Virus record (IMG/VR): IMGVR_UViG_2711768069_000006
Source of the DNA: a virus
Taxonomy: Duplodnaviria; Heunggongvirae; Uroviricota; Caudoviricetes
DNA: 7,070 bases
Reading direction: 5' to 3' (one strand)
Of the stretch, positions 3,519 through 6,460 are shown one piece after another (the stretch's first letter is position 1; each line of letters opens with the position of its first letter). A model generated the notes under the pieces. That model saw only the letters and a list, made by a program, of their open reading frames with translations, did no database searches and was not told the origin of the DNA. Both the position numbers and the translations under genes were made by a program.

Positions 3519-3533
3519 ATCCAGCTCCCTGTG

Positions 3534-3561
3534 AAAAAAACACGGGGGCATTTCGCCCCCG
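3534..3561 (-). terminator. Rho-independent terminator-like element: 7-bp GC stem, 5-nt loop, then a U7 tract
   Basis: Minus-strand RNA reads CGGGGGC-GAAAU-GCCCCCG followed by UGUUUUUUUC (stem 3561..3555 and 3549..3543, U-tract 3540..3534). It starts 8 nt after the E stop (3570..3572) and ends 15 nt before the FI start. Confidence 0.55.
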
Positions 3562-3569
3562 CTCACGGA

Positions 3570-4598
3570 TTATTTCACCTGTACCACCACAAACTCATCC
3601 GGATCCGGCAGCACCATCAGCGGCGCGGACTGCGTCATGGTGAATTCACAGGACGGATCGCCCACGGTCAGCCAGTGTTTCGGGTAACGGGAAGAAGCCA
3701 CCACTCCTTCAGACAACGCCTGTGCATCCTTAATGGCTCCATAGCAACGAATCCCCTCTGCTGCCGTATTCCCCAGCACCAGCGTGCCCTCCGGCAGATA
3801 ACGTTTTTCGGTACCGTCCTCTGCCACATAAGACGTTTTCGCCACCACAATGGCCAGATCGCCGTAATACCCCTTGAAGGATACCACTGCGCCCAGATCT
3901 TTCACTGCCGTTTCGAGTTGTGAATTTGAACCGCGACGGGTATCCATTTTTTCGCGGAAAAGCTTAAAGCCATTCAGCAGACGCCAGACGGTACCGTCCA
4001 TAATGGCAATATTCACAAGACCACTGGCCTGATCACAGAAAAGGTCGATATCATATGTCGGGTCGAACGTGTCACGATCCTGTTTTGACCACTCCTTACC
4101 GCTACCTTGTATGATGTTATTCTTCGTCGATCGGCCAAAATCGACTTCAATTTTCTCGAACTGGTCTCCTTCCATCGTATATTTGCCATACAGCACGGCA
4201 TTCACCGCCTGCATTTCTTCCACCTGCACAATAGCGTGCTCTTCCTGTTTGAGGTTATCAGTGATGATACGCAGACGACGGTAGGCCGGGTCGTTCAGCT
4301 GAGCCGGATCTTCACCGGGAAGGCGCTCAACCGCCTGCTGGTAATTAAATTCGTGTTTCGGCTTGACGTAGCCCGGACGCAACACGCGGGTTTCACCACC
4401 ACGATGGCGCAGCACTTTTCCTTCAACGATCGGGGAGACATAGGCCGCCACCGGCGTTTTTCCGGTAATTTTGTCCAGCATCACCTCTTCGGTGTGGAAA
4501 TTCACCGTACGGCGGAAAAACAGCTCCAGAAATAGCGCACGGAATTTCACTTTTTGTTCGGTATAACCGAGTAACTGGCGGGTCGTAAACAATCCCAT
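3570..4598 (-). CDS. E: Major capsid protein E (342 aa)
   Basis: Collinear match to lambda gpE (YVSPIV, PGYVKPKHE, DPAYRRLRII, QVEEMQAV, KYTM, TRRGSNS, LETAVKDLG, GNT...YG, SAPLM, DPDEFV). AAGGAA Shine-Dalgarno 7 nt upstream of the ATG at 4598. Confidence 0.97.
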   Translation of the reverse strand: MGLFTTRQLLGYTEQKVKFRALFLELFFRRTVNFHTEEVMLDKITGKTPVAAYVSPIVEGKVLRHRGGETRVLRPGYVKPKHEFNYQQAVERLPGEDPAQLNDPAYRRLRIITDNLKQEEHAIVQVEEMQAVNAVLYGKYTMEGDQFEKIEVDFGRSTKNNIIQGSGKEWSKQDRDTFDPTYDIDLFCDQASGLVNIAIMDGTVWRLLNGFKLFREKMDTRRGSNSQLETAVKDLGAVVSFKGYYGDLAIVVAKTSYVAEDGTEKRYLPEGTLVLGNTAAEGIRCYGAIKDAQALSEGVVASSRYPKHWLTVGDPSCEFTMTQSAPLMVLPDPDEFVVVQVK

Positions 4599-4626
4599 AA
4601 ATCAGTTCCTTTCATTCAGAAATCAG

Positions 4627-4648
4627 TCAGGCCACCATGGTGGCCTGA
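4627..4648. repeat. 22-bp perfect palindrome TCAGGCCACCATGGTGGCCTGA in the D-E spacer
   Basis: Checked base by base: 4627..4648 is its own reverse complement, centred on CCATGG. It lies between the D stop (4656..4658) and the E ribosome binding site and start (4598). No U-tract follows it on the mRNA strand. Confidence 0.8.
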
Positions 4649-4655
4649 TAACGTG

Positions 4656-5003
4656 TTACGGCAGAGCCGCGTGACTCAGGGCTGTGCCGGCAAAGGCATT
4701 TGCCTTTTTGTGTTCATCCACACTGTCAGGCCAGCGGATTGCCTCCGTCGCAAAGGTCCCCGACTTGTAATAGGTCAGCACCGTCTCTGTGCCTTCAAGC
4801 GGCAGTACCAGTATGCCAACCGCACTACCGGCTTTCTGTCCATCCCAGACCACCAGTTTCCCGGTGGCTTCATCCAGCATCAGGGGCGTCAGAGCCGGTG
4901 TTGCAGAAGAAATCCCGCTGCTGCCTGTGGCGGTATGAGCCGGATCATTACCAGCAAAAATACGTACTTCCGCACGCTGTTCAGTGATGGTTTTCGTCAC
5001 CAT
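4656..5003 (-). CDS. D: Head decoration protein D (115 aa)
   Basis: NDPAHTAT, TPLMLD, KLVVWDG, AVGIL, YKSGTF and AFAGTA motifs match lambda gpD; position between C/Nu3 and E; ATG at 5003..5001. Confidence 0.93.
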   Translation of the reverse strand: MVTKTITEQRAEVRIFAGNDPAHTATGSSGISSATPALTPLMLDEATGKLVVWDGQKAGSAVGILVLPLEGTETVLTYYKSGTFATEAIRWPDSVDEHKKANAFAGTALSHAALP

Positions 5004-5039: not shown

Positions 5040-5642
5040 TCATGGCATGGCCATGAGCATTTTCACGTCCGCATCACCGTCTGCTGACGTCTGTGACACG
5101 CCACCCCGCACCGCTGCCGGTGAATGATTCGCCATGAAATGTTCAAACAGGGCGGTTGTGGATGCAGAGACCGGTTCGGCCTTACCTGATCCCGCAGCCA
5201 GCACAGCCCGGGCGTTCTCCACGGTCATTCCCGGGCAGGCAGCCAGTTTTTCAGCCTGCGCTTCTGCCCCTTTTGCCTCATCCAGGGCCATGATCTGATC
5301 ACGAAGTGAGGGCCCGGCATCCGCCAGTGGTGCAGCCGCCAGGATCGGGCGGGCTTTTTCCACCGTCATCTCCGGCATCGCCGCCAGCGTTGCCGCCAGT
5401 TGTTCACGACCGTTCGCTTCTTCACACGCCATAATGCGATCGGCTTCACTCTGCGCGGATGCCACCGGCTGCTGCGGTGCCGCCGCGGCCAGAATCGCCC
5501 GGGCCTGTTCAACGCTCATGCCCTGTTGCCCTGCCAGCATCGTGGCAAGCTGTTCACGTCCTTTCGCTTCCTGACACGTCAGGATCCCCATCACTCGCTG
5601 GTTCTCCTGCACTGCGGCTTCCGTTGCAGTTAATTGCGGCAT
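5040..5642 (-). CDS. Nu3: Nu3-like scaffolding protein, translated from a nested in-frame start inside C (200 aa)
   Basis: Internal ATG at 5642..5640 preceded by GAGGAGG (5653..5647); product begins MPQLTATEAAVQENQRVMGILTCQEAKGRE... The product length of 200 aa is essentially the same as lambda Nu3, which is likewise nested in-frame in the 3' part of C. Confidence 0.65.
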   Translation of the reverse strand: MPQLTATEAAVQENQRVMGILTCQEAKGREQLATMLAGQQGMSVEQARAILAAAAPQQPVASAQSEADRIMACEEANGREQLAATLAAMPEMTVEKARPILAAAPLADAGPSLRDQIMALDEAKGAEAQAEKLAACPGMTVENARAVLAAGSGKAEPVSASTTALFEHFMANHSPAAVRGGVSQTSADGDADVKMLMAMP

Positions 5643-6460
5643 AGTGCCTCCTCTGACATTACTGTTCAGCGCCGTGGCCATCACACTGATGGCATCCGAC
5701 GCATTGATTAATTCATCCGCCAGCCCGGCCTCAATGCCGGACTGACCTTCAAAAACGGCGGCCTCTGTTCCCGTGACGGCATCAACAGACAGACCGGTAA
5801 ACATGGCCACTTTTTCGGCAAACATCCGGCGCGCCGCATCAATGCGCTGCTGCATGTCCTGGCGAACCTCTGCCGGTAAGGCTTCAAACTGATTGCCATC
5901 CACCTTGTGCGCCCCTGAGTAAATCAGCGTGATATCCACACCGGCCTGCGCCAGATGACCGGCATAGCTGACATGGCTCATCATCACGCCAATGGAGCCG
6001 ATACGGGATGTCTGGGTAACCAGCCGTCGGGAGCAGGCCGACGCCAGCAGCATGGCTGCAGAACAGGCCGTGTCATTGCACAGTGCCCAGACCGGCTTCT
6101 GCTGACGGAGGCGGTAAATCATGTCAGCGCAGTCAAACGCGCCGGCGGCCTGCCCGCCCGGACTGTCAATGTCCAGCAGTACGCCCCGCACCTGGCTATC
6201 CGCCATTGCCTGCTGAAGACAGGCGACAATGCCGTCATAGCCTGTCATTCCGGAAAATGGCCGCATACCCCCCAGCCGGTGCACCAGCGTGCCGGTCACC
6301 GGCAGTACAGCAATACCGTTCACCACCCATGTGGTACCGAAAGACTTGCTGCCCCCATCTCGCGCCCGAGCGCGCAAAAGAAAACCCGCGCATAGGCGGG
6401 CTCCAGAAGCAGCGGTTCATTGAATGCTGCGGCAATAATGTGTGAAAGATTACGTCTCAC
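5040..6460 (-). CDS. C: Head maturation protease / minor capsid protein C; reading frame is interrupted near the 5' end (frameshift or error at about 6330..6365)
   Basis: The main ORF (5040..6416 in its frame) encodes VVNGIAVLPVTGTLV..., with strong resemblance to lambda gpC through the protease and scaffold regions. It has no credible start in its own frame: no ATG or GTG before the conserved region, and the track start is a TTG with no Shine-Dalgarno. The lambda-like N-terminus (V)RRNLSHIIAAAFNEPLLLEPAYARVFFCALG is in the other frame (6460..6323, stop at 6320..6322), starting at a GTG at 6460 behind GAGGAG and overlapping the B stop by 11 nt. Confidence 0.85.
5172..5600 (-). repeat. Three tandem diverged repeats of about 141-150 bp (about 48 aa) within the C/Nu3 scaffold region
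   Basis: Protein repeats: RVMGILTCQEAKGREQLATMLAGQQGMSVEQARAILAAAAP / RIMACEEANGREQLAATLAAMPEMTVEKARPILAAAP / IMALDEAKGAEAQAEKLAACPGMTVENARAVLAAG. At DNA level, compare the segments starting at about 5196, 5337 and 5487 (for example gccaggatcgggcgggctttttccaccgtcat versus gccagaatcgcccgggcctgttcaacgctcat). Confidence 0.75.

What the first reader, a model, noticed from the sequence alone, without database searches (positions are those of the whole stretch)
4627..4648. 22-bp perfect palindrome in the D-E intergenic spacer
TCAGGCCACCATGGTGGCCTGA is a perfect, GC-rich inverted repeat that fills much of the 57-nt gap between D and E. With no U-tract after it, it looks less like a terminator and more like an RNA processing or stability hairpin (for example an RNase III-type target), a translational coupling modulator for the highly expressed E gene, or a dimeric protein-binding site. 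A perfect palindrome of this length is unlikely to be chance in a short spacer.
Basis: seen in the sequence. Interest (0 to 1): 0.45.

Follow-up and report, generated by a model that had tools for sequence, protein, structure and literature searches.

The report
Conserved RNA hairpin before capsid gene
The palindrome is real, and it is the phage-21-lineage version of a stem-loop that sits between the head-decoration and major-capsid genes of nearly all lambda-like phages, so it is an ordinary, already recognisable kind of late-operon RNA hairpin.

Summary
The 22-bp perfect palindrome at 4627-4648 is confirmed and is not chance. The genes lie on the minus strand and are phage-21-type (shp/D and gene 7/E homologues), not lambda itself. 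On the late mRNA the palindrome folds into a 9-bp G+C-rich stem with a 4-nt loop, extendable to 13 pairs (-16.8 kcal/mol).

In 27 of 28 other D-E spacers of 50 nt or more that I examined (lambda, N15, phi80, Gifsy-1, Serratia, Kluyvera, Erwinia, Vibrio and others), a G+C-rich hairpin occupies the same spacer. It usually carries a U6-8 tail, which makes it a textbook intrinsic terminator, and the N15 record annotates it as one. Stem sequences differ between lineages through compensatory changes.

Within the phage-21 clade the stem is about nine times less variable than third codon positions, while the two central loop bases vary freely (AT or GC). The motif occurs only at this junction, never dispersed. 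A second hairpin, here a canonical terminator, follows E in every lineage examined.

Most likely this is a terminator-derived intercistronic hairpin that has lost its U-tract. It would act mainly as an mRNA decay barrier and at most as a weak terminator. The RNase III and protein-operator readings are not supported. Interest is low.

The parts
4627..4648 (-). The 22-nt perfect palindrome. On the late mRNA (minus strand) it forms a 9-bp G+C-rich stem (UCAGGCCAC/GUGGCCUGA) capped by a CAUG tetraloop.
4622..4652 (-). Extended hairpin: four additional weak pairs (GUUA/UGAU) across a bulged C. Predicted -16.8 kcal/mol; spacer folding z-score -3.4.
4637..4638 (-). The two central loop nucleotides, which are the only freely variable positions. 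They read AT here, GC in phage 21 and most relatives, and AC once.
4656..5003 (-). Head decoration gene (lambda D / phage 21 shp homologue, 115 aa). Its stop codon lies 7 nt upstream of the palindrome.
3570..4598 (-). Major capsid gene (lambda E / phage 21 gene 7 homologue, 342 aa). Its ATG lies 28 nt downstream of the palindrome.
4607..4610 (-). AGGA Shine-Dalgarno sequence of the capsid gene. It is not paired with the hairpin and corresponds to the RBS annotated in the phage 21 record.
4599..4626 (-). A/U-rich tail and leader between the hairpin and the ATG (CUGAUUUCUGAAUGAAAGGAACUGAUUU). It is nearly invariant in the clade, has no U-run longer than 3, and contains two CUGAUUU repeats.
3532..3562 (-). 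Second hairpin, immediately after the capsid gene: GCGGGGGCgaaatGCCCCCGU followed by GUUUUUUU, a canonical intrinsic terminator shape. Together with the palindrome it brackets the E cistron.

Best explanation
The palindrome acts as RNA, not as a DNA site. On the late transcript (minus strand of the window) it folds into a stable G+C-rich stem-loop in the spacer between the head-decoration gene and the major capsid gene.

It is the phage-21-lineage form of a hairpin found in the same spacer of almost all lambda-like head operons. There it normally has the full shape of an intrinsic terminator (stem plus U6-8). In a Q-antiterminated late operon that terminator is read through, so the hairpin remains embedded in the polycistronic mRNA.

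In this lineage the U-run has been lost while the stem has been kept and is the strongest of those compared. I therefore infer that here it terminates poorly. I infer that it works mainly as a structural element of the mRNA: a barrier to 3'-to-5' exonucleases that stabilises the upstream decoration-gene segment after endonucleolytic cleavage. Together with the terminator hairpin directly after E, it would delimit the segments encoding the two most abundant head proteins.

Shown: the structure, its position, its conservation, compensatory change between lineages, and its absence elsewhere in genomes. Inferred: read-through by Q-modified polymerase (established for lambdoid late operons), weak termination, and the stabilising role.
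For: Position and fold:
- The RNA fold gives a 13-pair hairpin of -16.8 kcal/mol. The spacer MFE has z = -3.4 against shuffles.
- 27 of 28 other D-E spacers of 50 nt or more contain a G+C-rich hairpin: lambda, N15, phi80, Gifsy-1, Serratia, Buttiauxella, Kluyvera, Klebsiella, Erwinia, Trabulsiella, an alpha-proteobacterial MAG and Vibrio K290. Xylella Salvo is the one without. Most have a U6-8 tail.
- The N15 record annotates this stem-loop as a putative rho-independent terminator.

Covariation:
- A structural alignment of 20 such hairpins gives 9 consensus pairs, 5 of them with double-sided compensatory changes. One is G-C in lambda and Gifsy-1 against A-U in the 21 type, within a shared AGGCC.C...G.GGCCU frame.

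Constraint within the phage-21 clade (55 haplotypes chosen by capsid protein, not by the hairpin):
- The outer 8 pairs have nucleotide diversity (pi) of 0.009, against 0.082 at third codon positions (Mann-Whitney p = 0.006; segregating sites 3/16 against 100/199, Fisher p = 0.018).
- The two central loop bases have pi of 0.27.
- Window against phage 21: 16% of third positions differ, but only 2 of 57 spacer bases differ, and both are the loop centre.

Context:
- All 120 exact copies in IMG/VR lie at this junction.
- The same 1,870 E. coli records hold the motif as hold the junction.
- A hairpin also follows E in all 13 lineages checked. It has a U-run here and lacks one in lambda and N15, so hairpins without U-runs recur on either side of E.
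- The two spacers flanking E are the largest in this part of the operon; the other genes abut or overlap.
- Protective intercistronic hairpins of this kind are documented in E. coli operons (PMC5927463).
Against: - There are no transcript-end, half-life or termination data for this element or for its lambda counterpart in the literature I could search.
- The U-run in most relatives argues that termination, not stability, is the ancestrally selected activity. The loose scan still scores this site as terminator-like, with 5 T in 8.
- The whole spacer, not only the stem, is conserved in the clade, so part of the stem's low diversity could reflect general constraint on the E leader.
- Several lineages have no D-E hairpin at all: Providencia, Aeromonas PhAER-5, Chi-like phages and Xylella Salvo. 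It is therefore dispensable for this head type.
- D and E are needed in similar amounts, so a stability boundary between them has no obvious stoichiometric purpose.
- The between-lineage comparisons involve few independent clades.
Confidence: 0.5

Rival explanations
1. It is still a working intrinsic terminator or insulator. Polymerases that did not start at the late promoter and were not modified by Q stop here, and again after E. This keeps the capsid gene silent in the lysogen, while Q-modified polymerase reads through.
For: - Its positional counterparts in about 20 lineages are textbook terminators: a hairpin plus U6-8.
- N15 annotates it as a terminator.
- The hairpin aligns with those terminators.
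- The consensus scan lists it second among terminator-like sites on the sense strand.
- Terminators as insulators inside antiterminated operons of mobile elements are documented (abstracts of PMC11658703 and PMC8191782).
Against: - The tail is CUGAUUUCU, or UUCUGAAUG after the extended stem. There is no U at the first position and no run longer than 3. By established knowledge of intrinsic termination this predicts low efficiency.
- The D stop codon is only 3-7 nt from the stem, so a trailing ribosome would interfere with hairpin formation.
- The tail is nearly invariant in the clade without being U-rich.
Confidence: 0.25
2. It is a translation-related element for the capsid gene. By locking up the G+C-rich spacer sequence, it would keep the A/U-rich leader and the Shine-Dalgarno sequence single-stranded. 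Alternatively it would uncouple E initiation from ribosomes terminating at D.
For: - The hairpin abuts the 5' edge of the E ribosome-binding region, and the leader downstream is A/U-rich and nearly invariant.
- Lineages with a U7 run directly before a weak GGGA Shine-Dalgarno sequence (-4 kcal/mol) contrast with lineages lacking the run, which have stronger ones (-5.6 to -12). This hints that the sequence after the hairpin serves translation.
Against: - The hairpin does not pair with the Shine-Dalgarno sequence or the start codon.
- The Shine-Dalgarno/U-run correlation rests on essentially two large clades.
- Lineages with no D-E hairpin still express E.
- A similar hairpin also follows E, where no start site needs insulating by this logic.
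Confidence: 0.1
3. It is a functionless relic of the ancestral terminator, kept only because the clade is young.
For: The U-run is gone. A decayed copy exists in a Shigella/E. coli prophage lineage (TCAGGTCACTGCGGTAGCCTGA, -9.4 kcal/mol; L088). Single stem-breaking variants occur (L014, L076).
Against: - Stem diversity is about nine times lower than at third codon positions across 55 haplotypes, and there are no stem differences between window and phage 21 despite 16% third-position divergence.
- The one common variant (G to U at the pair next to the loop) only enlarges the loop.
Confidence: 0.08
4. It is an RNase III processing site, or a DNA binding site for a dimeric protein.
For: Perfect dyad symmetry. 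Both common centre variants (AT and GC) keep the DNA palindrome perfect.
Against: - The helix is only 9-13 bp, short of the roughly two helical turns RNase III normally requires (established knowledge).
- The sequence is not conserved between lineages while the structure is.
- There is a single copy per prophage, deep inside an operon, with no other copies in the window or in genomes.
- A non-palindromic centre (AC) exists (L044).
- AT and GC centres are fully linked to flanking haplotypes, so they represent one evolutionary event.
Confidence: 0.05

Closest known systems
The stem-loop between lambda D and E (AAAGGCCGCcuguGCGGCUUUUUUU) and its N15 and phi80 counterparts. It is annotated in the N15 record as 'putative rho-indep. 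transcription terminator' (NC_001901 5980..6004).
   Same: It lies in the same spacer, between homologous decoration and major-capsid genes, on the same strand. It has a G+C-rich stem of 8-9 pairs with a 3-5 nt loop, and it aligns structurally with compensatory changes.
   Different: Here the tail is CUGAUUUCUG instead of U7. The stem is longer and more stable, lies closer to the D stop (7 nt against 17-29 nt) and farther from the ATG (28 nt against about 13-20 nt). The Shine-Dalgarno sequence is stronger.
Protective intercistronic hairpins that cause differential decay of polycistronic mRNAs: the malE-malF REP, the puf intercistronic stem-loop and the papBA type (Dar and Sorek 2018, PMC5927463).
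   Same: A stable stem-loop in an intercistronic spacer next to the most highly expressed genes of an operon. No U-run is required. There is evolutionary conservation of structure.
   Different: No half-life or 3'-end data exist for this element. It is not a dispersed REP sequence. The genes on both sides are needed in similar amounts, unlike malE against malF.
Internal, partially read-through terminators that flank phage major capsid genes or tune operon stoichiometry. Examples are T7 T-phi after gene 10 (from memory), weak phage terminators mapped by ONT-cappable-seq (PMC9163698) and internal terminators in Clostridium ABC operons (PMC9045158).
   Same: Hairpins placed next to the capsid gene inside a long structural operon. 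In this window a canonical terminator follows E.
   Different: The palindrome lies upstream of the capsid gene, where termination would reduce capsid expression rather than raise it. It also lacks the U-run.

Membership tests
Lambda-like D-E intercistronic hairpin (positional family) | Lies in the spacer between a decoration gene (Pfam HDPD) and a major capsid gene (Pfam Phage_cap_E), on the sense strand | tested here: met
   Pfam assignments; coordinates; the same layout in lambda, N15, phi80, Gifsy-1 and about 20 prophage lineages
Lambda-like D-E intercistronic hairpin (positional family) | G+C-rich stem-loop whose pairing is kept across lineages through compensatory substitutions | tested here: met
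   RNAalifold on 20 hairpins gives 9 pairs, 5 with double-sided changes. The 21 type differs from lambda and Gifsy-1 by G-C to A-U at one pair. The sequences were pre-cut around the hairpins, which favours the structure.
Intrinsic (Rho-independent) terminator | Stable G+C-rich hairpin on the transcribed strand | tested here: met
   9 pairs with 6 G-C; -16.8 kcal/mol with the extension
Intrinsic (Rho-independent) terminator | U-rich tract (typically 6 or more U within 8-9 nt) directly after the stem | tested here: not met
   The tail is CUGAUUUCU and the longest U run is 3. It passes only the loose '5 T in 8' rule of the scan. Relatives have U6-8.
Intrinsic (Rho-independent) terminator | Measured release of transcripts 7-9 nt after the stem | not testable with these tools
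   No transcript-end data were available. Term-seq of O157:H7 Sakai exists (PMC7547250) but could not be read here.
Protective intercistronic mRNA hairpin (malE-malF / puf type) | Stable stem-loop in an intercistronic spacer, conserved as structure | tested here: met
Protective intercistronic mRNA hairpin (malE-malF / puf type) | Decay intermediates ending at the hairpin, and a longer half-life of the adjoining segment | not testable with these tools
   Needs 3'-end mapping and a rifampicin chase; nothing was found in the searchable literature.
REP/BIME-type dispersed extragenic palindrome | Many copies dispersed in intergenic regions of the host chromosome | tested here: not met
   The motif is found in exactly the same 1,870 records and 1,865 genomes that hold the D-E junction. 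In IMG/VR, 120 of 120 copies are at the junction.
RNase III processing site | About two helical turns (roughly 20 bp) of near-continuous duplex | tested here: not met
   9 continuous pairs, or 13 with a bulge. The length requirement is from established knowledge, not tested.
Operator for a dimeric DNA-binding protein | Sequence, not only symmetry, conserved among relatives, usually near a promoter and often repeated | tested here: not met
   The stem sequence differs between lineages. There is a single copy. No promoter-like site was found in the window.

The most novel reading that the evidence does not exclude
The two hairpins that bracket the major capsid cistron, one before E and one after it, form a conserved post-transcriptional 'cassette' in lambda-like phages. 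It would set capsid mRNA dosage independently of termination. On either side the U-run can be present or absent, depending on the lineage. Where the U-run before E is present (lambda type), it may serve mainly as a U-rich translational enhancer compensating for a weak Shine-Dalgarno sequence. That would explain why the phage-21 lineage, with a stronger Shine-Dalgarno sequence, could lose it while keeping the stem.
Probability: 0.15. Interest if true: 0.45.

Novelty: new member of a known kind. Interest (0 to 1): 0.2.

Why it matters
This finding matters little on its own. The hairpin is present in about a third of complete E. coli genomes (1,865 of 5,426) as part of phage-21-type prophage head operons. 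It is an unannotated counterpart of the lambda and N15 D-E stem-loop.

Its modest value is as a natural experiment. The same conserved hairpin occurs with a U-run in the lambda type and without one in the 21 type. This could help separate the terminator role from the mRNA-stability or translation roles of the structures that flank capsid genes in antiterminated late operons. It is also relevant to anyone engineering D or E fusions or rebuilding these operons.

Tried and rejected
- Rfam, at a permissive E-value on 4400-4900, gave only noise (SpR20, 14 bits against a gathering score of 45).
- Ten full-text literature searches and several direct look-ups found no experimental work on the D-E hairpin of lambda or phage 21. 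Casjens and Hendrix 2015, Liu et al. 2013 and Sampson et al. 1988 are not held.
- A dispersed repeat (REP-like) is rejected.
- I suspected a 2-nt indel in some E. coli hits (499 against 501 aligned bases). This was only alignments ending 2 nt early.
- The idea that the AT-to-GC change preserving perfect DNA symmetry signals DNA-level selection, or template-switch 'correction', is set aside. The two centres are completely linked to flanking haplotypes, so they count as one event. An AC intermediate exists, and the bases lie in the RNA loop.
- A bidirectional terminator is rejected. The plus-strand tail UAACGUGUUACGG has no U-run.
- An outer helix pairing the end of D with the E start region appears in the minimum-free-energy fold. 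It could not be tested because those positions do not vary in the clade.
- RNase E motif matches (GA|UUU, twice in the spacer) are at the chance level of about 1 expected.

Full report
**The observation**

Window 4627-4648 is TCAGGCCACCATGGTGGCCTGA, two perfectly complementary 11-nt arms with nothing between them. It is the longest perfect inverted repeat in the 7,070-nt window. Only 1 of 300 dinucleotide-preserving shuffles of the window produced an arm that long with zero gap, and the analytic expectation is 0.0017.

**Context**

The genes are on the minus strand. In sense order, Pfam assigns:
- an S49 protease/scaffold gene (5040-6377);
- a lambda-D-type decoration protein (4656-5003);
- an E-type major capsid protein (3570-4598);
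- then FI, FII, Z, U, V, G and T homologues.

The DNA is 95-96% identical to the phage 21 head operon (M81255; shp and gene 7). The junction occurs in 1,865 of 5,426 complete E. coli genomes.

The 57-nt D-E spacer and the 51-nt spacer after E are the largest intergenic gaps in this part of the operon. The other genes abut or overlap.

**Structure**

On the sense RNA the palindrome forms 9 pairs, because the two innermost 'palindromic' pairs cannot close a loop. The cap is a CAUG tetraloop. Four weak pairs extend the stem across a bulged C, giving -16.8 kcal/mol. The whole spacer folds with z = -3.4 against shuffles. The stem begins 7 nt after the D stop codon and ends 28 nt before the E start codon. 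The AGGA Shine-Dalgarno sequence is left unpaired. The tail is CUGAUUUCUGAAUG, with no U-run longer than three.

**Close relatives (the phage-21 clade)**

I used eighty IMG/VR loci chosen by capsid-protein similarity, which is blind to the hairpin, plus phage 21 and genome hits. After removing one locus with an IS element inserted in the spacer, these gave 55 distinct haplotypes of a 657-nt D-spacer-E stretch. Nucleotide diversity (pi) and segregating sites were:

| Region | pi | Segregating sites |
|---|---|---|
| Third codon positions (D and E) | 0.082 | 100 of 199 |
| Outer eight stem pairs | 0.009 | 3 of 16 |
| Two central loop bases | 0.27 | 2 of 2 |

The stem is less variable than third positions (Mann-Whitney p = 0.006; Fisher p = 0.018).

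The one frequent stem variant, G to U at the pair closing the loop, only widens the loop. Rare singletons break a pair or create a G-U wobble. Window and phage 21 differ at 16% of third positions but at only 2 of 57 spacer bases. Both differences are the loop centre, AT against GC.

The leader downstream of the hairpin is even more conserved (pi 0.005). The stem is therefore one constrained part of a constrained spacer.

**Distant relatives**

These comparisons are the decisive evidence. I read the D-E spacers of lambda, N15, phi80, Gifsy-1 and about 25 further distinct prophage lineages from a scan of one genome per species.
- Every spacer of 50 nt or more in the lambda-like set contains a G+C-rich hairpin.
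- In most of them it is followed directly by U6-8. Examples are lambda AAAGGCCGCcuguGCGGCUUUUUUU and N15 AAAAGCCGCcugcGCGGCUUUUUUU.
- The N15 GenBank record annotates its copy as a putative rho-independent terminator.
- Gifsy-1, the nearest outgroup, has AAGGCCGCgaaGCGGCCUUUAUCGUAUUU, with a weakened U-run.
- Serratia and Trabulsiella are intermediate.
- A more distant Vibrio phage has a canonical terminator hairpin in the same spacer.

A structural alignment of 20 of these hairpins gives nine consensus pairs, five of them with double-sided compensatory changes. The 21-type stem fits the frame AGGCC.C...G.GGCCU shared with lambda and Gifsy-1, and differs by a compensated G-C to A-U pair.

There are exceptions. 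Providencia (short spacer) and Xylella Salvo (60-nt spacer) have no hairpin there. In Aeromonas PhAER-5 and Chi-like phages the two genes abut or overlap. The element is therefore common but not obligatory.

**A second hairpin**

Every one of the 13 lineages I checked also has a stable hairpin directly after the capsid gene. In this window it is a canonical terminator shape (3562..3542, then GUUUUUUU). In lambda and N15 that downstream hairpin lacks a U-run. Hairpins therefore flank E in general, and which one carries the U-run differs by lineage.

**What the evidence excludes**
- A dispersed repeat. All 120 exact copies with any centre in IMG/VR are at this junction, two of them with an IS element inserted beside it. 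A 31-nt query finds the same 1,870 E. coli records as the 501-nt junction query.
- A sequence-specific protein operator. Lineages keep the structure, not the sequence. The site is single-copy, deep inside an operon, with no promoter-like site nearby.
- A described RNA family. Rfam returned nothing meaningful.
- RNase III is unlikely, because the helix is 9-13 bp. The length requirement is established knowledge, not tested here.
- The perfect symmetry of both centre variants carries no weight. AT and GC are fully linked to flanking haplotypes, so they represent one event. An AC centre exists, and these bases lie in the loop.

**Mechanism**

Shown: a conserved RNA hairpin at a conserved operon position, derived from or equivalent to a terminator hairpin, and without a U-run in this lineage.

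Taken from established knowledge: lambdoid late operons, including that of phage 21, are transcribed by Q-modified polymerase that ignores terminators. Such hairpins therefore persist inside the mRNA.

Inferred:
- Without a U-run, and with the D stop codon only 3-7 nt from the stem, termination should be inefficient here.
- The retained and strengthened stem then most plausibly acts as a barrier to 3' exonucleases and as a boundary of stable decay intermediates. The malE-malF and puf intercistronic stem-loops, and many E. coli operons, work this way (PMC5927463).
- The post-E terminator would close the other side of the capsid cistron.

I give this reading about 0.5. The structural and homology part alone I rate much higher, about 0.85. 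The main rival, at 0.25, is that the hairpin still works as a weak terminator or insulator against polymerases not modified by Q, which is what the U-runs of most relatives suggest. A translational role for the E leader gets 0.1. It is hinted at by an inverse relation between U-run length and Shine-Dalgarno strength, but that relation rests on essentially two clades. A functionless relic (0.08) is disfavoured by the low stem diversity.

**Limits**
- No transcript-end, half-life or termination measurements could be accessed. The library lacks the classic lambda late-gene papers, and ten searches found nothing specific.
- The hairpins used were pre-cut around the structure, which favours it.
- The between-lineage trends involve few independent clades.

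**Verdict**

The finding is correct as an observation and partly correct as an interpretation. The element is an unannotated member of a recognised kind: a terminator-type intercistronic hairpin flanking the capsid gene in lambda-like late operons. Its lineage-specific feature is the lost U-run. Interest is low (0.2).

Noticed in passing
L267:583-1296 (NZ_CP142919.1), also L059, L154 and L255; the insertion point corresponds to window about 4620/4621: An IS200C element (tnpA) is inserted in the D-E spacer 6-8 nt downstream of the palindrome in several independent prophages. It carries both AT- and GC-centre hairpins, and the left junctions are slightly different (CTGATT|GTGCACAG against CTGATT|GTTGTGCACAG). 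This suggests a recurrent insertion hot spot beside the hairpin, within the CTGATTT motif.
   Followed up: partly
window 3532-3562 (minus strand): A canonical intrinsic-terminator shape lies directly after the capsid gene: GCGGGGGCgaaatGCCCCCGU plus GUUUUUUU. A hairpin follows the capsid gene in all 13 lineages examined, with or without a U-run.
   Followed up: partly
L269:1647-1670 (Vibrio phage K290, OZ196675.1): The spacer after this distant phage's capsid gene holds a perfect 24-nt palindrome, TGATTGCGACCATGGTCGCAATCA. It has the same ACCATGGU core and CAUG loop as the window's palindrome. This is probably coincidence.
   Followed up: no
L095-L110 and L132-L140 (genome-contig hits): Short, low-coverage contigs carrying lambda-type E genes (about 60% identical to the query), spot-checked as identical to lambda in the D-E spacer, appear in assemblies of unrelated organisms (Bradyrhizobium, Kitasatospora, Paenibacillus, Prevotella, Akkermansia and others). 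This is almost certainly lambda DNA contamination of those assemblies.
   Followed up: partly
MT713136.1 250152-250479 (Aeromonas phage AP1, 254 kb): A 200-330 bp segment is 96% identical to the 5' end of the capsid gene and starts exactly at the ATG, in an unannotated part of a jumbo Aeromonas phage record. It is likely an assembly chimera or contamination.
   Followed up: no
D-E spacers of lambda, N15, phi80, Kluyvera and others against window, Gifsy-1 and Serratia: Lineages with a U6-7 run after the hairpin have a weak GGGA Shine-Dalgarno sequence about 2 nt after the run (predicted -4 kcal/mol with the anti-SD). Lineages without a long U-run have stronger ones (-5.6 to -12). The U-run may double as part of the E translation-initiation region.
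   Followed up: partly
window 4620-4626 and 4599-4605 (minus strand): The spacer contains two copies of CUGAUUU, one just after the hairpin and one just before the ATG. Each fits the loose RNase E RN|WUU motif, although about one such match is expected by chance.
   Followed up: no
L088/L089 (E. coli ECMA0423 and Shigella flexneri SFBU1023): A decayed copy of the hairpin (TCAGGTCACTGCGGTAGCCTGA, -9.4 kcal/mol) occurs in a lineage whose capsid match stops at residue 336. This is possibly a degenerating prophage.
   Followed up: no
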